IMG/VR virus record: IMGVR_UViG_3300014204_000004 | Span: 1 to 64,000 of that record | Strand: one strand, 5' to 3' | Source: a virus | Taxonomy: Duplodnaviria; Caudoviricetes | Length of the DNA stretch: 64,000 bases | In this document: in pieces, positions 46,380-54,525 of the stretch | How the letters are laid out: every line of letters starts with the position of its first letter | Position numbering within the stretch: position 1 is the first letter of the stretch | Notes under the pieces: model-generated | What the model was told of the DNA's origin: nothing | The model's database searches: none | Seen by the model: the letters and a program-made list of their open reading frames with translations, nothing else | Position numbers and translations under genes: made by a program

Positions 46380-48482
46380 CTATACCTCCTCGTTTTGTGT
46401 TACTACTGGTTCGCTTATTGCCGTGTTATGAATAAGCAGTTGCTCTAACGTGTCTACGATTAACGGTATCAAGTTACGAGCAACGCTTACGTCCTGTCTG
46501 AATATGTTAGGCATGCCCACGTTCAGTGATATTGAGTTGACGTTCTGGTGCGTCACAACTTCATGCGTTGATTGGTCTCTGAACACTACGACAGTAGGTG
46601 CCGCACCTAAGGGCGGTGCGCCTTCTGCCACTGCTTCGGCATCGTTGATGCGATGAATGTCTGTCATGTACTCTCTCAATGCTACAGGTGCAGGTACAGG
46701 AAGATTCGATACGAACCCTCTCGCTCTTCTGTAACCAAAGAGTACGAGGTTCACATGCTTGAGCAATCTTTCCGGTATTATTCTCTCACGCAGAGCACTT
46801 GTTAGACTGTTTCTCACGCGCAGGTCCCATTCATCTCTGTACGTGAGATGCAAAGCTCTTACAGAGGGGCTATCTGGTACCTCCTCATCATAATCGTCGT
46901 CCTCATCGCACTCTACACCAGGCTGAGAATCTTCTGGCATTGCGTTTACTCTGCCAAGAGGATGTTGTGCTGATACTCTGCCTGTGTTTATGGTCGCGTT
47001 AGGGTCGGCAGTCAGCATAGGCTTATCTACTCCCCACTCGACAAGCATCCTGTCGTTACGTGCGCCCACTCTTACGAGCACGTTGTTTATGAAATTCAGG
47101 TACGTCTGCGCCTCTTCTGGTTCGAGACCTGCTGTATCAACAAGCTCTTTGAACCCAATTGGATACTTGTACGTGAACTCTTTTACTCCGTTAACGAATC
47201 TGTTGGTGATATTCTGTGCTATCTTGTACGCAAGCCTCGTTATCTCAGGTGTCATGAAGATTAAAGCAGGAGCACTGCGATACTCGAAGCCCCAACCCTT
47301 AGTCTCATAGGCACCGAGTGTCTTGTAACCTGAACGTGCCTTACCTGACAGATTGAGAGTAGGTGCGCCGATGAAATCGTCCAACATCTTAACCAGATGT
47401 TGAGGCGGTACATATGTTCTACCGACACCGATGTGTATGTGACCACCTAAAGGATAACTGTGGCCTGCTACACCTAAGTCATACGCGGGGTACATGCGAT
47501 AGAACCTTTCAAGCAGGTGCTTGAGAATATCGACAGCTTCTTCGGGTGTAGTTGCGGCACGAGGTCTAAGCTCGACCTGTGAACCAGCACCGTCTCTGCC
47601 TAACCCACCTTCAGGGTGCGACGTGGTTTTTATCTTGCTTGAAGCGTTAACCACCTCGTTGCTGTACCGACTTACAAGCTCGAACTCTGGGTCAGAGCCT
47701 AACTGAATCATAAGTCTGGGGCGTCTGCGCTTTCTGATAATGACTCTCTGAAGAGGCATGAGGTCGAGTCTGTCTACTAACGCATCATAGAGTATCTTGT
47801 CGATGAAGCGTATGCCATAAGCAGAGTGCGACCAGTCACCAACGATGAGTATGTTGTTGTTCGGTATGTACAGACCCATGAATATATTGCGCCCTCTTGC
47901 AGGTCTGTCGCTACTCTCGCCATAGCGCACTGATACACGCATGACAATCTTTACCGCCTCGAACACGGTAACAAAAGGGCTAATGCCGTTCTGCTCGTCT
48001 GTCAGTTCTTCGTTGATAATCATAGCCTCTAGTGCCGGCTTGGCTGAGGTGGCTCTGTGCGAATCGTTGTCGTAAGAGAACTCGCCTCTCTTGGGCTTCT
48101 CTGCTACCATATCGAAGAACTTTCCATACAGCAGATGTTTGTACGTTGCAAAGTGCGTGAGTCTTGGCATACGAACCGTGCGTATTATCTTGAAGCGTAC
48201 AGTGTCACGCAGGTTCTTTGGTTCGCAGAAAGCGTACACAGTATTGTTCCAGTTTTCGCTGAGATTGAGGTACGCGTGTGCTCTGCATTTGTTGAAGTAG
48301 TCCTTCATAATCTCGAACAGACGACCAACGTATTCTACGTTGTTGTGGTCCGGGAGTTGCAGGCTACCGTCAGCGTTTCTGTTAGGGTCTCTGACCCAAT
48401 CGGGCAACTGTGGTATGACTATACGAGTAGGTCTACTGTCTGATACTTCGTTTCCCATATGATTGATGGTCACGTCACTCAC
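46380..48482 (-). CDS. COOH-NH2 ligase (amidoligase, phiEco32-like type 2) domain protein
   Basis: LGSDPEF, G.DG...ELRP, GGHIH.G, YETK.WG.EYRS motifs; GTG start. Confidence 0.8.
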   Translation of the reverse strand: MSDVTINHMGNEVSDSRPTRIVIPQLPDWVRDPNRNADGSLQLPDHNNVEYVGRLFEIMKDYFNKCRAHAYLNLSENWNNTVYAFCEPKNLRDTVRFKIIRTVRMPRLTHFATYKHLLYGKFFDMVAEKPKRGEFSYDNDSHRATSAKPALEAMIINEELTDEQNGISPFVTVFEAVKIVMRVSVRYGESSDRPARGRNIFMGLYIPNNNILIVGDWSHSAYGIRFIDKILYDALVDRLDLMPLQRVIIRKRRRPRLMIQLGSDPEFELVSRYSNEVVNASSKIKTTSHPEGGLGRDGAGSQVELRPRAATTPEEAVDILKHLLERFYRMYPAYDLGVAGHSYPLGGHIHIGVGRTYVPPQHLVKMLDDFIGAPTLNLSGKARSGYKTLGAYETKGWGFEYRSAPALIFMTPEITRLAYKIAQNITNRFVNGVKEFTYKYPIGFKELVDTAGLEPEEAQTYLNFINNVLVRVGARNDRMLVEWGVDKPMLTADPNATINTGRVSAQHPLGRVNAMPEDSQPGVECDEDDDYDEEVPDSPSVRALHLTYRDEWDLRVRNSLTSALRERIIPERLLKHVNLVLFGYRRARGFVSNLPVPAPVALREYMTDIHRINDAEAVAEGAPPLGAAPTVVVFRDQSTHEVVTHQNVNSISLNVGMPNIFRQDVSVARNLIPLIVDTLEQLLIHNTAISEPVVTQNEEV

Positions 48483-48519
48483 TTTGTATCACCTCACTGT
48501 TTGTTTTTGATGATAATAA

Positions 48520-48549
48520 AGTTTATCATAAAGTTCGTATTAAAGTCAA
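48520..48549 (-). promoter_or_regulatory. Sigma70-type promoter (TATGATAAA family)
   Basis: TTGACT-N18-TAAACT with extended -10 TG. Confidence 0.65.
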
Positions 48550-48589
48550 TAACAAAAAACTCTAATAAATTCGATATGTTAATCGATAA

Positions 48590-48633
48590 GAGAGAAAAGA
48601 AAAGGGTGGTCAACTTAACGTCAACCACCCCTT
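48590..48633 (-). terminator. Rho-independent terminator
   Basis: GGGTGGT/ACCACCC stem followed by TTTTCTTTTC on the - strand. Confidence 0.65.
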
Positions 48634-48650
48634 GCCGGATTCAATTAGGT

Positions 48651-49085
48651 TTAATCTTCAAGGCTGTTGTCTGGTGCTCCGAAGCCTGCGATGTATTCTA
48701 TCCAGTCTTCAATCAGAGTCTCTTCGCGTAAGATGTGCTCCTGTGGCAGGACGTGATAGATGATGCCTTTGACAGTCAACACATTGCCTGCGTCATTTGT
48801 TATCTCAACAGCGATAACCTCTTTTTTGTAACCGAAAGGTAGCTCCAGATTGTCGAGCATCTTTTCGACCACTGCGTTTACTTCGTATGCTTCTACCACG
48901 AATGAGTGCTCGCCTGTGCCTTCTCTGTCGAGCACAGCTTTCGGGTAACCGCCGACGTTGTACATCTTGCCTTTTACTCTGCCTTTGCCGAGACAGGTCA
49001 CTTTGTTCGTTGTGCCTTTCTCCTGAAGTAGATAGTGATTGTAACTACCTTTGCGTAGCGTACCATAAACAAATGCGTTTTTCAC
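48651..49085 (-). CDS. Gamma-glutamylcyclotransferase (AIG2-like)
   Basis: FVYGTLRKG..N, GGYP and E.YEV......LD.LE..Y motifs. Confidence 0.88.
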   Translation of the reverse strand: MKNAFVYGTLRKGSYNHYLLQEKGTTNKVTCLGKGRVKGKMYNVGGYPKAVLDREGTGEHSFVVEAYEVNAVVEKMLDNLELPFGYKKEVIAVEITNDAGNVLTVKGIIYHVLPQEHILREETLIEDWIEYIAGFGAPDNSLED

Positions 49086-49382: not shown

Positions 49383-49796
49383 TCACGCGTGTCTTCTTCT
49401 CACGCGTGTCTTCTTCTCAGGCACAGGCTCTTCTTCTACCACAGGTTCAAAAACAGGCTCTTCTTCAACAACAGGCTCTTCAACAACAGGCTCTTCGTCA
49501 ACTGCAGGTACTTCCTCTTCGACTGGTTCAGATTCTTCCTCTTCGATTGGTTGTTTAGATTCTTTCTCTTCGACTTCTTTGAATCGTATCTGAGGTGCAT
49601 ATCCCGGCATATTGTGCGTGTCTTTGGTCCACAACTTGCAGATGTTCTCTGCTACTTCTACCGCCTCTGCTTTGTCCTCGAAGTGTTTGTACTCTTTGAG
49701 GTAGCAGGCAGGTAGCATATCGATGGAAGGTTCGCTGTTTGTTACCTCTACTATTCTCAACCCGCCAGTTTTGTACTGTCTTGTTACTGTCCACAT
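49383..49796 (-). CDS. Hypothetical protein with EEPVV repeats
   Basis: AGGAGG RBS; acidic repeat tail. Confidence 0.6.
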   Translation of the reverse strand: MWTVTRQYKTGGLRIVEVTNSEPSIDMLPACYLKEYKHFEDKAEAVEVAENICKLWTKDTHNMPGYAPQIRFKEVEEKESKQPIEEEESEPVEEEVPAVDEEPVVEEPVVEEEPVFEPVVEEEPVPEKKTRVRRRHA

Positions 49797-49904
49797 ACTT
49801 TCCTCCTATGATAGAATTATTAGGCGACGTTGATAAGAACCGCCGCCTAAAAAATTCTACAACATAGCGTAGATAAAAGCAAACTGAACAGTAAGTGACC
49901 TAGG

Positions 49905-50641
49905 TTAGCTCTGCCTAAACAGTGCGTTACGACCGGGACTGTGCAAAACCACAACAAAGCCCTGCCCTACTCTACCTGCACTATACATTAGCGCACTTTA
50001 CTTTACCCCTCACTTTGCTCAACCAAACTTTACTGTCGCCTCGCACTTACTTAACTCTGCGATGAGACACCTTACCCTTGCCGTACATAACCGAGCTTTG
50101 CTCACACAGTACAGTGCTAAACCACACCATGACATTACTTTACAGCACCTTGCGACACCTTCACAGTACCAGAACAGCATATAACACTGCGGTGCCATAC
50201 CTAAACTTCACTTAAGTGCGCTCCGCTTTTACATTACAACACAAAACTATACTCATACATCAGTATACTGAACCATACCTGCACGATATATAACTAAACA
50301 ATGCCGTACCAACGCCTTACGTGACAGTGCTGTGCCATTACCATACATCATCAAACAATGCAGTACCTTCGCCTTCACGTAACATCTCTATACGATGCAA
50401 AACCACCACGCAACACTGCCGTGCAATACCATAACTGAACCATCCATACAATACCTTTACGTGACATCTCTATACGATGCAATTACTTTACGTATCTATA
50501 CAGTGCCTCTGCGATACTATTCTTTACCCTTACCACAAGAAACTGTGCAATACCAACGCTATGCTATGCTACGCCTTTACGAAACATTGGGTAGTATAAC
50601 CATACCTTTACTTCACTTTACGGTGTCGAGCTTGCGCTAGA
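49905..50641 (-). ncRNA. Pentamer-periodic array (GY-NNN)n downstream of the RAMP gene; candidate guide-RNA array
   Basis: On the + strand RC recurs every 5 nt, with a 6-nt step every 4-6 units, e.g. from 50279: ctgcac gatat ataac taaac aatgc cgtac caacgc cttac gtgac agtgc tgtgc cattac catac. No plausible ORF. Confidence 0.8.
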
Positions 50642-51292
50642 CTATGCTGTGAGCCTTTCTTTGACAGGCTCGATGGCGAGTACCTCGAAGCGGCCGTAAC
50701 CGCCGTTTCTGAACTGACCAAGACCAGCAAGCTCACCATAACTTAGCAACTCGATGAGCATGTCCCAGGTTATCTCTTTGTTCTTGAGAAGTTTGATGGT
50801 GAAGCCGAGTATCAGACCTGCGTTGACATAATCACTACGTGCCAGTGTTACACGCGGGCCCTGAGGTGTCATAACGCGAAGAGGTCTTTCTATGTAGCCG
50901 TCAGGCTGGCTACAGCCGAGGTAGATGCGACGAGGTGTGACGAACACGTACTTGTCTACCTTGCCACGTATACCCTTCATCTTCTCCATTGTGGCGGGTT
51001 TGCCTTTCTTTTCTTTCTCGACCAGAAAGGTCTGCTGAAGAACTTCGCCGGCATTCTTGAGAAATCCGCGAATCATGTAGTCATATATGAAAAGCCGGTC
51101 GGTTTCTTTCTCTCTGTGAAACCCCGTCCAGCCCTTTTCCTCTGTCTTGTCTACTGTCGCGCTCTCGTCTTCTTCGATATTGGCAGGCTTCTTCGACTCG
51201 ATGTAGGTCTTGTAAACTTCTGGGTCTTTTGATACTGTGCCGAGCATCTCTGTTACTAACTGAATATTTACCATGCGTTCATCAAAAATCAT
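50642..51292 (-). CDS. Stand-alone Cas7/RAMP-superfamily protein (Vipr-like)
   Basis: 216 aa. N-terminal strand I.L.TEMLG, helix YMIRGFLK.A, central ERP..R...RSD segment, and C-terminal glycine-rich loop GLGQFRNGGYGRFEV typical of RAMP/Cas7-Csm3. Confidence 0.8.
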   Translation of the reverse strand: MIFDERMVNIQLVTEMLGTVSKDPEVYKTYIESKKPANIEEDESATVDKTEEKGWTGFHREKETDRLFIYDYMIRGFLKNAGEVLQQTFLVEKEKKGKPATMEKMKGIRGKVDKYVFVTPRRIYLGCSQPDGYIERPLRVMTPQGPRVTLARSDYVNAGLILGFTIKLLKNKEITWDMLIELLSYGELAGLGQFRNGGYGRFEVLAIEPVKERLTA

Positions 51293-51324: not shown

Positions 51325-51605
51325 CACGTGGTACCACCACAGCCAGTAAAGACTTTACCTCACCTCCTTAACGATTACACTACAACACAATACCGTAACT
51401 ACTCTGTGCATAACCTCAGCAGAACATCGCATTGCCAAAACTGTGCCTTGCTATTCATTACCTTAGCCGAACTGTTACTTAACCTTCACTTTACTTTATC
51501 CACTAAACATAACAAAAGGAGAAAACAAACGCTCTCACTTTACCGCTAGTGAATAACTTTGCAAGAGGAGAATTACGAACACCATTACACTACCAAACTT
51601 TACAA
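51325..51605 (-). ncRNA. Second pentamer-periodic array upstream of the RAMP gene
   Basis: tgtgc ataac ctcagc agaac atcgc attgc caaaac tgtgc cttgc tattc attac cttagc cgaac...: same 5/6-nt grammar as the downstream array. Confidence 0.7.
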
Positions 51606-51683
51606 TGGAGGTGTTGATATGAAAAACTAAACAGGCGATACTGTTACTTTGCTCTCCTCTTGCATTATGTATTACACATCATA

Positions 51684-53033
51684 CTACAACTCAGGCTTAT
51701 CATCAATGTTCATGTTCAGAGCATAAGCCTTGAGCAGACCCTCGTGCGTCAGTACCTTTTCGGCAGGTACAACCTCTGTACGATAGCCGTCGGGATAGTG
51801 GTCGAGATATGATTCTTTGGCGTAGAAGGTCAGACCCATCTCGTTGGTTACAACTCCTTTCTTCAGTACAGCGCCGTCTTCGGCCATAGCGTAGACGAAT
51901 GTTGGGTACGCGGTACGCATCGGGAAGATGTACACTACAGGCTTGTCAACGTCAGTGGTGTCAAGGTCAGGTAGCAAATCGTTCTTGGAAAAGAAATTCT
52001 TGAACTCTTTCTCACTCATGGTAATACCCTCAGGTGTTGTAGCAGGCACACGTTTAGGTGCTTGCTTCACCGGTTTGTTGAGAGCAAATAGCCTGTTCAT
52101 GTGCACCTCATCCCATATCATGGAATACATGTTTCGCTCTCCGGGCACACACTTGATGCCAAGTTTATCGCTAAGTATGTGCGCTAAATCTGCGAGTGAA
52201 CCTTGAAGAACGTGCGTTGGCGATACCATTTCGTTGTACCGTCTTCTTATCCAGAACAGACGCAACATGCCGCCCTTTACTTTCTTTTCTCTGTGTAGCT
52301 TGTACATGGTTTTGATAAGAGCAGACTCAAGCTGGTCAGACAGTGATAGTGGTACTGGTGGCTCAGCGACAGGATTGAGATTCAGAAATTGGTCGGTAAC
52401 GTCGGTTGTTTTGCCGTTCGATGTTACGTGTAACAATTTCAATAGAGGAATCTCTTTCTTGCTGAGAACTTTGAAGCATATGATTCTGCCAGTAGGCTTT
52501 GTCACCTTGCTAAAGATGTGAGGCAAGATTCTGCACAGAGCATTAAGGTGATTACTGCATTGGCCGTACTTCTCTTTGCTTGCAATAATCACATCATCGG
52601 TAGTGAAGGTTTCAACGCGCAGTGCCAGATTGAATATGGCATTCAGAAGGTTCGCGGTCTGTGTCAAACTGCTGGGCTTGTTTGTTGGTATGATGATGCT
52701 GTCGCCGTTGACAAGTTTCAATCTATTTGATGTTGGTCTCTTGCTATCTTTATCGCCATTGTTTCTGTACTTCTCGAACGTCTCGTAACGTAGCGGCTTG
52801 ATGTGTTCAGAGACCATCATTATGTATTCTGTACGTGAGCCTACGCCGAAGGCCTTCACGACGTGCGGATATAGTCGTACATACTCCTTCAGTATGTCTG
52901 ATATGTACGATGCACTGACCTTAAGCTGTTTGGCTATTTTGTAAGGATTGAATGTCTCGCTAACTGACGAGCATGTAGCCAATGATTCGTGTATGTATCG
53001 CACGACCTTGTTGAACTTTGGTGATGTTGACAT
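51684..53033 (-). CDS. Hypothetical protein with tandem winged-HTH-like repeats
   Basis: FNPYKIAKQLKVSASYISDIL and a second similar helix set; paralogue of 53064-53924. Confidence 0.6.
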   Translation of the reverse strand: MSTSPKFNKVVRYIHESLATCSSVSETFNPYKIAKQLKVSASYISDILKEYVRLYPHVVKAFGVGSRTEYIMMVSEHIKPLRYETFEKYRNNGDKDSKRPTSNRLKLVNGDSIIIPTNKPSSLTQTANLLNAIFNLALRVETFTTDDVIIASKEKYGQCSNHLNALCRILPHIFSKVTKPTGRIICFKVLSKKEIPLLKLLHVTSNGKTTDVTDQFLNLNPVAEPPVPLSLSDQLESALIKTMYKLHREKKVKGGMLRLFWIRRRYNEMVSPTHVLQGSLADLAHILSDKLGIKCVPGERNMYSMIWDEVHMNRLFALNKPVKQAPKRVPATTPEGITMSEKEFKNFFSKNDLLPDLDTTDVDKPVVYIFPMRTAYPTFVYAMAEDGAVLKKGVVTNEMGLTFYAKESYLDHYPDGYRTEVVPAEKVLTHEGLLKAYALNMNIDDKPEL

Positions 53034-53063
53034 AGTAACTTCCTCCTTGTTATTTTGTGACAG

Positions 53064-53924
53064 TCAGCTACCTTGTGATTCTTCCCATCGTATCTTCAAC
53101 TCTTCCTTATGCTCGTCTGCAAGAATAAGAAAAGAGTCAGCAATCTCTTCAGCCGCCATACGACCACGAACAATCTGTACCTCGGCTGATATGAGTCTCA
53201 TTACTTTGTCTTTAAGAGTGAGAGGTCTCTCGTTGGTGCGCTTCTCAACTCTTTCGCCGTTGGGTTCTTGCTTGAGCAGTGCGTTCTTAAGGCCCCGTAT
53301 GACATCATTCGGCATGTTGATAGCATCAGATGTGTCACCACGCATAATGGGAAACATTCTTCGCAACGCTGAGAAGAACTCTTTTACTGTGGTCTCACCA
53401 AGATGAGTGGTCGTGGTTACATCTGAGACCGTCACGCGGTTGTTTTCTTCGGCTATCTCCAAGAAGGCATCACGCATGCGCTCGATGTTAGCAAAGGCGG
53501 CAGGCGTATTGGTTGGCACATGAATGATGACTCGTCCTCTGTGCTGTATTGAATACAGTCTGTTGGGTACGCTTGTCTTGTTGCCAGGCGTATCGAGTTC
53601 ACTGTTGTGTGCCGCACGATACTGGTCATAGTCAGGCCATCTTACCTCTTGTGGCTTGAAACATCTGAACTTCACACCCTGCCCGAACATGGCAATTCTT
53701 TTGAAGATGCCTCTGTTCATGTCATGCAGTGTTTGGCAAATGTCGGTCACGTAGGTTTTGCTGGCGTCTGTATTGTCGACCACGCTGTTGACATGTATGG
53801 TGGTGGTAATTCTTCGCGTGCCGATTAGCTCATTCTTAATATGACTGATTACTTTGTTGTATACTTCTAATCCCTCACTCATCTTTCTCCTCCTCTTCTT
53901 CGTAATGATGACCACGATGTTCAA
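53064..53924 (-). CDS. Hypothetical protein, paralogue of 51684-53033 (probable start MSEGL 53882)
   Basis: Shares the NKV..I...L, Y..DI, NRL...I.PTN.P and AL.R..P blocks. Confidence 0.6.
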   Translation of the reverse strand: MNIVVIITKKRRRKMSEGLEVYNKVISHIKNELIGTRRITTTIHVNSVVDNTDASKTYVTDICQTLHDMNRGIFKRIAMFGQGVKFRCFKPQEVRWPDYDQYRAAHNSELDTPGNKTSVPNRLYSIQHRGRVIIHVPTNTPAAFANIERMRDAFLEIAEENNRVTVSDVTTTTHLGETTVKEFFSALRRMFPIMRGDTSDAINMPNDVIRGLKNALLKQEPNGERVEKRTNERPLTLKDKVMRLISAEVQIVRGRMAAEEIADSFLILADEHKEELKIRWEESQGS

Positions 53925-54525
53925 GCATATACAATGAGGAACTGATATGCTTATCGAACACGTTGCCTATTTTGTGGGTTAAACACCCGCACTTGAACAC
54001 ATCGCCATTAGGCACCACGAACAGTTCGTCACATCTGCAACCTTCTGTGGCTTCTGGTAGCTCAACAGCCCTGCCACATTTCTTTATGTTGCCACTGACA
54101 TCACGTATCTCTCGAAAGTCGTTATCAGACTGACCATAATTGAACGCAGTCTTCTTCGGTCTTTCAAATGCCTTTGAGACCTCTGGGTCTATGGGTTCAT
54201 GGTACACATCGAGCGACAGGCACACAGACAGTATTCCATGTCGAGCAATGTTGGCAAGTCTTAAAGCCTCCTTCTTATTCTTGCCGTTAGTAGCGAGCCA
54301 TATAGGACCTTCAGGTGTTCTGCCCTGAGCTATACCCACCATCTGCCAGAACTTAGGATGTATAGTTGGCTCACCACCACCGATAGATATATACTCACCG
54401 CCGTCTTCAGCAAGGTCACATGCCTTCGTGAAGGTCTTCAGACTCATGTCCTCGCCTACATCGGTACAAGCAAAGCAACAGTGAGCACATCGCATATTGC
54501 ACCGCGTGGTTATCTGTATATACAT
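53875..54525 (-). CDS. Radical SAM protein with short SPASM/Twitch tail
   Basis: CNMRCAHC, GGGEPT.HP, TNG and C....V.PNGDV..C....IGN motifs. Confidence 0.9.
   Translation of the reverse strand: MYIQITTRCNMRCAHCCFACTDVGEDMSLKTFTKACDLAEDGGEYISIGGGEPTIHPKFWQMVGIAQGRTPEGPIWLATNGKNKKEALRLANIARHGILSVCLSLDVYHEPIDPEVSKAFERPKKTAFNYGQSDNDFREIRDVSGNIKKCGRAVELPEATEGCRCDELFVVPNGDVFKCGCLTHKIGNVFDKHISSSLYMLEHRGHHYEEEEEKDE

What the first reader, a model, noticed from the sequence alone, without database searches (positions are those of the whole stretch)
49905..50641. Second-level periodicity: a 6-nt step every 26-31 nt or so divides the array into guide-sized units
Seen in sequence: runs of 3-5 pentamers (NNNRC on +) are interrupted by a hexamer that usually begins with C (ctaaac, cacaac, ctgcac, ccttgc, catgac, cttcac, caacgc, cattac, caccac, cataac, ctttac, ctctgc, ccttac). 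On the coding strand this reads GY-NNN-GGY. It yields roughly 25-28 units, mostly of 26 or 31 nt. Inference: the hexamer is a processing site or filament boundary that separates individual guides. It would play the role of a CRISPR repeat but be encoded as a register shift rather than a repeated sequence.
Basis: partly seen in the sequence, partly recalled or inferred. Interest (0 to 1): 0.85.

Follow-up and report, generated by a model that had tools for sequence, protein, structure and literature searches.

The report
G-punctuated VIPR guide-RNA array, phage
The extra base every 26 or 31 bases is real and conserved: it splits the five-base-repeat guide-RNA array of a phage VIPR system (a CRISPR-related RNA-guided DNA silencer first described in 2026) into short blocks, so this is a well-measured new example of a known kind and not a new system.

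Summary
Observation confirmed. On the - strand, 49905-50647 is 143 tandem units. There are 112 pentamers (96 start G-Y) and 28 hexamers, 21 of which end in an extra G. They form 31 blocks, 20 of them 26 or 31 nt. The spacing is far more regular than chance (P about 0.0004). The same grammar lies beside homologues of the adjacent 216-aa gene in 27 other viral arrays (blocks of 4-7 units; sixth base G in 79-86%).

The gene encodes a minimal Cas7-like RAMP, homologous over its full length to the SUSP1 Vipr family. The locus is therefore a VIPR system (bioRxiv 10.64898/2026.04.26.720920) with the YNNNG repeat variant. It has no 3' tails and no conserved accessory gene.

Successive block lengths are serially independent, so there is no long-range 5.2-nt lattice. 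This argues against a DNA-helix or per-turn reading and favours discrete units that reset the register.

Cleavage at the extra G, the pairing rule and the targets are untested: no RNA data and no target were found. The VIPR authors mention "staggered arrays", which is probably this layout. Earlier agents of this scan reported the same punctuation in several other phage genomes. Novelty is modest.

The parts
50642..51292 (-). vipr gene: 216-aa minimal Cas7-like RAMP with the C-terminal G-loop GLGQFRNGGYGRF
   Evidence: No Pfam, PHROG or PADLOC hit. AF2 model has pLDDT 84.6. VIA Z is 11.7 (rmsd 3.4, 140 aligned) to type VII Cas7 8yhd_A and 11.3 to Csm3 9g9a_D. All top Foldseek hits are Cas7/Csm3, best E 3e-6. 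hhalign to the SUSP1 Vipr family gives Prob 83.6, E 8e-6 over 177 columns.
49905..50647 (-). Downstream vrRNA-type array: 143 units of G-Y-N-N-N (YNNNG in the paper's notation), starting at the stop codon of vipr
   Evidence: As RNA it is no more structured than shuffles (z +0.41). No Rfam family or ribozyme is present.
50606..50611 (-). Example junction hexamer GTAAAG. The 31 register steps have these low coordinates: 50632, 50606, 50575, 50554, 50528, 50507, 50481, 50455, 50446, 50430, 50404, 50373, 50367, 50336, 50310, 50279, 50253, 50227, 50201, 50170, 50159, 50128, 50102, 50076, 50045, 50034, 50007, 49976, 49950, 49931, 49915
   Evidence: Viterbi/EM segmentation. 21 of 28 hexamers end in G.
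50455..50480 (-). 26-nt block GCATC GTATA GAGAT GTCAC GTAAAG, repeated with two changes at 50373-50398
   Evidence: blastn-short and segmentation. Both copies end at a hexamer, and the first copy is exactly one block.
51368..51494 (-). Short upstream array of the same G-Y pentamers (24 units, mean 5.29 nt) in the 5' leader of vipr
51558..51664 (-). Structured leader element closed by a 13-bp stem (GCAAGAGGAGAG / UUCUCCUCUUGC), 5' of the upstream array
   Evidence: MFE -33.2 kcal/mol, z -4.58, 0 of 200 shuffles fold as well. Its role is unknown and it could not be found in the two closest loci: L012 holds only 62 nt upstream of the gene, and in L014 that space holds called genes.
49812..49850 (-). 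GC-rich hairpin (AGGCGGCG..CGUCGCCU) about 55 nt after the last array unit, before the next gene
   Evidence: Read directly. The terminator scan does not call it because no U-run follows it. A role as a 3' end is inference only.

Best explanation
The stretch is the main guide-RNA (vrRNA-type) array of a phage VIPR system. The adjacent 216-aa Vipr homologue probably polymerises along the transcript, one protomer per Y-N-N-N-G unit. It would hold the G-Y anchor and present the variable bases for DNA recognition.

In this clade the first G of the canonical GGY is degenerate. This fits the absence or change of the two SUSP1 residues that read it.

Every 4-7 units (here mostly 5 or 6, giving 26 or 31 nt) one extra base, nearly always G, sits between two complete protomer footprints. 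It shifts the pentamer register by +1. The most likely role is punctuation: it interrupts the exact 5-nt spacing that protomer-protomer contacts need. The long tail-less transcript would then be read as about 30 short Vipr mini-filaments or guide units, and possibly trimmed or cut there.

Shown here: the grammar, its conservation, the protein's fold and homology, and the serial independence of the blocks.
Inferred: filament breaks, RNA processing, the pairing rule and the targets.
For: - Grammar and regularity.
- Same-strand arrays with the same punctuation lie next to homologues in 27 clean arrays out of 44 distinct loci. Block sizes are 4:124, 5:208, 6:175, 7:60 and >=8:44. The sixth base is G in 79-86%.
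- The junction has its own composition. In the first unit of a block, position 3 is A in 0.60 against 0.44 elsewhere (p 1.5e-10).
- Block lengths are serially independent: pooled lag-1 r 0.014, p 0.76, n 466; block-shuffle Fisher P 0.24. Each block therefore resets rather than keeping a lattice.
- The L035 and L037 arrays (86% identical) differ by one 26-nt indel that is exactly one block.
- In the window and in L034 the duplicated segments are single blocks.
- The protein has the Cas7/Csm3 fold and full-length profile homology to SUSP1 Vipr. SUSP1 H17 falls in a 5-residue segment that this family lacks. D177 corresponds to Q193, W178 to F194 and R179 to R195.
- Three copies are predicted to pack head to tail: ipSAE 0.47, best of 3 controls 0.01. 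In the calibration, 20 of 30 proteins solved as pairs of one chain and 1 of 23 solved as single chains reached the mark. The runs share at least 37% of contacts and pLDDT is at least 74. The G-loop 194-198 lies against helix 70-75 of the next copy. This pass may reflect likeness to solved Cas7 filaments.
- Published mechanism: one protomer per pentamer, with GGY held jointly by two protomers (10.64898/2026.04.26.720927).
- Published vrRNA grammar, the YNNNG variant and 'staggered arrays' (10.64898/2026.04.26.720920).
- Canonical SUSP1 vrRNAs keep a strict 5-nt register for about 11-14 units with no hexamer, so the +1 step is a clade-specific feature.
Against: - There is no RNA evidence of any kind for this locus or clade, so ends at the extra G are unproven.
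- Internal duplications in L030, L057 and L065 run across junctions.
- L012 and L013 encode the same Vipr but differ by a 1-nt G indel that makes or removes a junction. A junction can therefore appear without obvious cost, or that difference is an assembly error.
- A 5-unit block has only 10 informative bases under the published 2-of-5 code, which seems too few for a specific guide.
- The segmentation anchors on G-Y, so the strength of G-Y next to junctions is partly built in.
- The figure that defines 'staggered arrays' could not be seen.
Confidence: 0.6

Rival explanations
1. Continuous filament with a hinge. The Vipr filament runs unbroken through many blocks. The extra G is a bulged hinge or a high-affinity GGY seed placed about once per helical turn. 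It lets a very long filament adapt between 6 and 5 protomers per turn, or nucleates assembly, and does not separate guides.
For: Block size (mode 5, then 6) equals the number of protomers per turn reported for SUSP1 Vipr: six in the binary complex and five with DNA. Some duplications cross junctions. A 1-nt G indel between strains is tolerated. Single blocks carry little information under the 2-of-5 code.
Against: There is no compensation between successive block lengths in 27 arrays. Block sizes range from 4 to 7, with some of 1-3 and 8-13. SUSP1 filaments of 12 protomers need no extra base.
Confidence: 0.22
2. DNA-level phasing. The 5.2-bp period is half the B-DNA helical repeat (10.4 bp), and the array is a double-stranded DNA site for a protein coat or a structural element.
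For: Mean periods of 5.11-5.28 nt in 27 arrays double to 10.2-10.6 bp.
Against: The periodogram has no peak near 10.4 nt, only 5.2 and its harmonic 2.6. There is no long-range phase keeping. In every array analysed, the G-Y motif was found on the gene's strand, usually from the stop codon; the opposite strand was not scanned for arrays. The partner protein is an RNA-binding RAMP homologous to Vipr. The period follows arithmetically from 5 + 1/n with n = 4-7.
Confidence: 0.03
3. Neutral slippage. The hexamers are tolerated 1-nt insertions with no function.
For: A G indel polymorphism exists between L012 and L013.
Against: Gap CV is 0.37 against about 0.90 for random placement. 17 of 27 arrays are individually regular. 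The inserted base is G in 79-86%. The junction has its own composition.
Confidence: 0.04

Closest known systems
VIPR systems with alternative YNNNG repeats and 'staggered vrRNA arrays' (bioRxiv 10.64898/2026.04.26.720920, methods and fig. S18 legend)
   Same: A phage-borne lone Vipr RAMP. Flanking same-strand arrays of pentamers with a fixed G-Y anchor. [quoted passage not shown] Seven types share six vap genes, so one type has no vap gene.
   Different: The figure is not held, so it is not certain that 'staggered, 1-nt overlapping' means the +1 G step seen here. That layout was not among those the authors confirmed by small-RNA sequencing. The block-length distribution, junction consensus and serial independence reported here are not in the text I could read.
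Type II VIPR of Escherichia phage SUSP1 (Vipr + Vap1 + four vrRNAs; cryo-EM in 10.64898/2026.04.26.720927)
   Same: Homologous protein (hhalign Prob 83.6, E 8e-6, full length). The same G-loop core, G-x-G-[DQ]-[WF]-R. Pentamer repeats on the gene strand both upstream and downstream of vipr. Predicted head-to-tail packing.
   Different: SUSP1 vrRNAs are about 100 nt, with about 11-14 strict GGYNN units and a conserved pseudoknot tail, and a vap1 gene follows vipr. Here there is one 743-nt tail-less array of xGYNN units with a +1 G every 4-7 units and no conserved neighbour gene. The residues that read G1 are absent or changed.
Non-canonical VIPR repeat motifs such as WGT/NN (bioRxiv 10.64898/2026.10.21.760802)
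   Same: Read as W-G-Y-N-N, the unit here matches the reported class of motifs that are degenerate at one position of the fixed trinucleotide. These also lie next to Vipr-like folds.
   Different: That survey describes about 10 repeats per element and does not mention second-level punctuation.
Cas7 backbone filaments of type III / VII CRISPR-Cas (Csm3, Cmr4, type VII Cas7)
   Same: The best structural matches (Z 10-12). The same G-rich loop. A helical filament on a guide RNA with periodic base flipping.
   Different: CRISPR filaments have a 6-nt period with 5 paired bases. Their guides are delimited by repeats and Cas6/Cas5 handles. They also have further cas genes and adaptation genes. Here there are no repeats and spacers, and no cas genes were identified within 2.5 kb.

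Membership tests
VIPR system | Vipr protein: small single-RRM RAMP with G-loop and thumb, homologous to characterised Vipr | tested here: met
   The fold is Cas7/Csm3-like. A profile-profile match to the SUSP1 Vipr family gives Prob 83.6, E 8e-6 over 177 columns.
VIPR system | Adjacent same-strand non-coding array of tandem pentamers with a conserved GGY-like anchor and variable positions | tested here: met
   There are 143 units, with G 0.90 and Y 0.95 at positions 1-2. This is the YNNNG variant named in the paper's methods. The array is conserved beside homologues.
VIPR system | Array is transcribed and the RNA co-purifies with Vipr | not testable with these tools
   No RNA holder was listed, and only contigs could be laid.
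VIPR system | Noncontiguous target pairing (variable bases pair, one target base skipped per unit) | tested here: inconclusive
   Eighteen rule variants were searched against the phage genome and 17 loci. None gave a hit above shuffled controls. The host and competitors are unknown.
VIPR type II (SUSP1-like) | Discrete vrRNAs of 9-16 strict GGYNN repeats, each capped by a conserved structured 3' tail; vap1 next to vipr | tested here: not met
   The array has no tails and no structure (z +0.41) and no Rfam hit. A register step occurs every 4-7 units. No neighbour gene is conserved across 44 loci.
VIPR 'staggered vrRNA array' layout | Tail-less array in which adjacent vrRNAs abut, offset by 1 nt | tested here: inconclusive
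   The +1 G step fits the wording of the fig. S18 legend. The figure is not held, and the authors did not list this layout among those confirmed by sRNA-seq.
CRISPR-Cas class 1 effector | Repeat-spacer array, 6-nt guide periodicity, further cas genes | tested here: not met
   The period is 5.2 nt, with no 6-nt peak. No direct repeats are present. Neighbours within 7 kb gave no Cas family in Pfam or PHROGs, and vipr itself gave no PADLOC hit.
Helically phased DNA element (10.4-bp) | Long-range phase keeping with the DNA helix | tested here: not met
   The periodogram has no 10.4-nt peak. Successive block lengths do not compensate.

The most novel reading that the evidence does not exclude
Each block may be a quantum of one helical turn. 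On this reading, 5-6 Vipr protomers (the number per turn seen by cryo-EM with and without DNA) form a single-turn, ring-like clamp on DNA. Because this clade has lost the pocket for the first G, three bases per unit would pair (a GY/NNN code). That would give 15-18 informative bases per block, a step between the VIPR 2-of-5 code and the CRISPR 5-of-6 code. The extra G would be the only separator such a system needs.
Probability: 0.15. Interest if true: 0.7.

Novelty: new member of a known kind. Interest (0 to 1): 0.38.

Why it matters
VIPR was described only in 2026, and only type II (discrete vrRNAs with pseudoknot tails) has been studied at the bench. This clade has more than 590 homologues in metagenomes. 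It pairs a lone Vipr with long tail-less arrays whose only internal mark is a +1 G every 4-7 units.

If those marks delimit guides, specific DNA recognition would be achieved with 4-7 protomers. That is a much smaller unit than the 9-16 repeats known so far, and the separator would be a register shift with no repeat or structure. This bears on how guides are defined without Cas6-like processing, on the minimal size of a programmable Vipr tool, and on the proposed path from VIPR to CRISPR.

The loss of the G1-reading residues together with the xGY repeat is a testable example of protein-RNA co-variation.

Tried and rejected
- Pfam, PHROGs and PADLOC gave nothing for the 216-aa protein.
- blastn of the array against 50,697 phage records gave no match. 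tblastn found only five distant unannotated or hypothetical hits.
- RNA evidence: no RNA holder was listed. The one run labelled RNA-Seq is probably DNA and covers only the gene end. All runs are contigs, so no ends could be read.
- Rfam at E <= 1: no family and no hammerhead between blocks.
- The terminator scan found none. Four promoter-like sites are no more than the shuffles give.
- Target search under 18 pairing rules (informative positions 3-4, 4-5 or 3-5; target skip 0-2; junction skip 0-1) against the phage genome and 17 loci. The best hits were 16-17 of 18 or 20-22 of 27 against shuffled tops of 15-17 and 20-22. The single best hit was 17 of 18 against 15 in only two shuffles, which is expected by chance across 18 rules.
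- Pattern scans of the large collections were not attempted. A single block has too few specified bases for an exact-match scan to be specific, and two-block patterns presuppose the rival model.
- Phase-locked 5.2-nt lattice (DNA helix or per-turn compensation): considered because of the very sharp 5.20 peak, and rejected by the block-order tests.
- Host inference: genome contigs holds only 10 homologues, all in MAGs of unrelated phyla.
- hhalign of the family against the single SUSP1 sequence matched only the G-loop (Prob 51). A family-against-family comparison was needed.

Full report

The region 49905-50641 is ORF-poor and strand-skewed (C 225, G 100 on +). The identity autocorrelation peaks at lags 5, 10/11, 15/16, 21, 26, 31 ... 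52, 57. The periodogram has a single sharp peak at 5.20 nt (power 23, window median 0.65) with its harmonic at 2.6. No other place in the 103,709-bp genome shows it. Written in rows of 26 on the - strand, the G columns stay in register over 28 rows.

An EM/Viterbi segmentation gives 143 units between 50647 and 49905. There are 112 pentamers, 96 of which start G-Y. There are also 28 hexamers, one heptamer and two tetramers. Position frequencies are G 0.90, Y 0.95, then A-rich/C-poor, G-poor, and mixed.

Blocks closed by a non-pentamer measure 26 nt (12 times), 31 nt (8 times), and 16, 21, 11, 6, 9, 19 or 27 nt for the rest. Shuffling the order of the units reproduces so tight a lattice in 0.04% of trials. 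Only the count of units (31 blocks against '25-28') is slightly off.

**2. What is it?**

The array begins at the stop codon of a 216-aa gene (50642-51292, - strand) that has no Pfam, PHROG or PADLOC match. The family is large: 598 database proteins at E <= 0.001, all unnamed.

An alignment-based AF2 model (pLDDT 84.6) matches Cas7-type RAMPs and nothing else at the top. Matches include type VII Cas7 8yhd_A (Z 11.7, rmsd 3.4, 140 aligned), Csm3 9g9a_D (Z 11.3), Csm3 6ae2_B (10.8) and a Cmr-beta complex chain, 6s6b_I (10.7). Foldseek E-values start at 3e-6. A sequence profile also touches type VII Cas7 and Csm4 through the C-terminal G-rich loop.

A literature search found that this combination was described in 2026 as VIPR. 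In VIPR a phage-borne minimal RAMP (Vipr) polymerises on vrRNAs made of GGY/NN pentamers. The paper's methods name alternative repeats NNNGG, YNNNG and NNNNG (10.64898/2026.04.26.720920).

I fetched phage SUSP1, read its vrRNAs and built a profile of its Vipr family. Profile against profile, the two families align over 177 columns (Prob 83.6, E 8e-6). The window therefore holds a VIPR system of the YNNNG (x-G-Y-N-N) kind.

In that alignment the two SUSP1 residues reported to read the first G behave as follows:
- H17 falls in a five-residue segment that this family lacks.
- D177 is Q193 here.
- The G2 and Y3 contacts persist: W178 is F194 and R179 is R195.

This gives a simple reason why GGY has become xGY. 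It rests on an alignment, not on a structure.

Three copies of the protein are predicted to pack head to tail:
- The score (ipSAE) is 0.47 and the best of 3 controls is 0.01.
- In the calibration, 20 of 30 proteins solved as pairs of one chain and 1 of 23 solved as single chains reached the mark.
- The runs share at least 37% of contacts, and pLDDT is at least 74.
- The G-loop of one copy lies against helix 70-75 of the next.
- This pass may simply reflect likeness to solved Cas7 filaments.

**3. Is the second-level rhythm a property of the family?**

Two scans of IMG/VR and three exact look-ups gave 44 distinct loci with homologues. In 42 of the 44 an array of G-Y pentamers lies on the gene's strand. 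It usually starts within about 0-25 nt of the gene's end. In a few loci it lies upstream or on both sides. No neighbouring gene is conserved, so this clade has no recognisable vap gene. The paper lists six vap genes for seven types.

In 27 cleanly delimited arrays:
- The mean period is 5.11-5.28 nt.
- The gaps between hexamers average 5.33 units with CV 0.37; random placement would give about 0.90.
- 17 arrays are individually more regular than their shuffles at P < 0.05.

Block sizes over all loci are 4:124, 5:208, 6:175, 7:60 and >=8:44, plus short ones that come partly from poor arrays. The sixth base of the hexamer is G in 79-86%.

The junction also has its own composition, which the segmentation model (it scores only positions 1-2) cannot create. 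The first unit of a block has A at position 3 in 0.60 against 0.44 (p 1.5e-10) and is depleted in C. The closing hexamer is A-rich at position 4. The junction consensus is roughly G-Y-R-A-W-G | G-Y-A-W-N.

By contrast, the three downstream SUSP1 vrRNAs keep a strict 5-nt register for about 11-14 units. The +1 step is therefore specific to this kind of array.

**4. How does it most likely work?**

The sharp 5.20-nt peak suggested two continuous-lattice readings:
- Half the B-DNA helical repeat (10.4 bp).
- One extra base per turn of the Vipr filament. Cryo-EM shows six protomers per turn without DNA and five with DNA (10.64898/2026.04.26.720927).

A lattice predicts compensation: a long block should be followed by a short one. 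In the window there is a hint of this (31 followed by 6 or 11; block-shuffle P 0.05-0.08). Over 27 arrays there is none: pooled lag-1 correlation 0.014 (p 0.76, n 466), Fisher-combined block-shuffle P 0.24, mean z 0.02.

The array is thus a string of blocks whose lengths are drawn independently from a narrow distribution. Each junction resets the register. This is what discrete units predict. Together with the missing 10.4-nt peak and the constant strand, it disposes of the DNA-helix reading.

Parsed by protomer footprint (Y-N-N-x-G, as in the paper's YNNGG), the extra G lies between two complete footprints. The two protomers that flank it would therefore be 6 nt apart, not 5.

Other evidence is mixed:
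- For discrete blocks: L035 and L037 (arrays 86% identical) differ by one 26-nt indel that is exactly one block, GTATT..GTGTAG. The internal duplications in the window (50455-50480 / 50373-50398) and in L034 are single blocks ending at hexamers.
- Against: duplications in L030, L057 and L065 cross junctions. L012 and L013, with identical Vipr, differ by a single G that makes or removes a junction.

The array RNA is no more structured than shuffles (z +0.41) and holds no ribozyme or other Rfam family. If the RNA is cut, the cut is not made by an embedded hammerhead as in some published VIPR arrays.

My reading: punctuation into short Vipr units is the best explanation (about 0.6). A continuous filament with hinges or seeds comes next (about 0.2). 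Whether RNA is actually cleaved is open.

**5. A caution on 'guide-sized'**

Blocks of 26-31 nt look like CRISPR spacers. Under the published code, however, only two bases per pentamer pair. A 5-6-unit block would then carry 10-12 informative bases, against 18-32 in characterised vrRNAs.

Either three bases pair in this clade (conceivable, since the G1 pocket is gone), or several blocks act together, or low specificity is tolerated. I could not decide between these. A search under 18 rule variants against the phage itself and 17 related loci gave nothing above shuffled controls. The host is unknown: only 10 homologues occur in 185,579 species genomes, all in MAGs of unrelated phyla. No RNA data exist. 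The runs show only that the same phage occurs in a landfill sample, which may be the sample this DNA was assembled from, and in two groundwater samples.

**6. Comparison and novelty**

The system is a member of the VIPR family but not of type II: it has no tails, no vap1 and no strict register. The repeat variant (YNNNG, also reported as WGT/NN in 10.64898/2026.10.21.760802) is known.

[quoted passage not shown] This layout is not among those they confirmed by sRNA-seq. It is probably the same layout, but the figure is not held, so I cannot be sure.

Earlier agents of this scan reported the same G punctuation in several other phage genomes. I treated those notes as leads only.

- The family-wide block-length distribution.
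- The junction consensus.
- The serial-independence test.
- The absence of a conserved accessory gene.
- The link between the lost G1-reading residues and the xGY repeat.
- The remark that block size equals the protomers per filament turn.

Verdict: a real, conserved feature and a new member of a known kind. Interest is moderate, because it poses a sharp and testable question about the smallest VIPR guide.

Noticed in passing
window 51555-51670 (- strand): A 116-nt stretch at the 5' end of the vipr leader folds into an element closed by a 13-bp stem (GCAAGAGGAGAG / UUCUCCUCUUGC). MFE is -33.2 kcal/mol and z is -4.58. It lies upstream of the short upstream array. It could not be found in the two closest loci: L012 holds only 62 nt upstream of the gene, and in L014 that space holds called genes.
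   Followed up: partly
window 46380-49085 (- strand); also L012 2099-3698: A phiEco32-like COOH-NH2 ligase (700 aa) and a gamma-glutamyl cyclotransferase (144 aa) lie just downstream of the array. They keep this position in the closest relative, L012. A radical SAM gene sits at 53875-54525.
   Followed up: no
window 49383-49796 (- strand): A 137-aa protein with a strongly acidic EEEPV-repeat C-terminal half directly follows the array and hairpin. It has no family match. It is not conserved next to vipr across the family, so it is not an obvious accessory gene.
   Followed up: partly
window 51684-53924 (- strand): Two unannotated genes (449 and 286 aa) upstream of the VIPR module have no Pfam family; the 449-aa one has a weak PHROG hit of unknown function. 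No further search was run on them.
   Followed up: no
L034 1542-4733; L025 1901-2351 and 3050-3309: Some relatives carry far larger or double arrays. L034 has about 600 units spanning both sides of vipr, and L025 has arrays on both sides.
   Followed up: partly
L040 and L042 (same contig IMGVR_UViG_3300016457_000282, 150 kb): One viral contig holds two copies of the vipr homologue in opposite orientation about 27 kb apart, with near-identical downstream regions.
   Followed up: no
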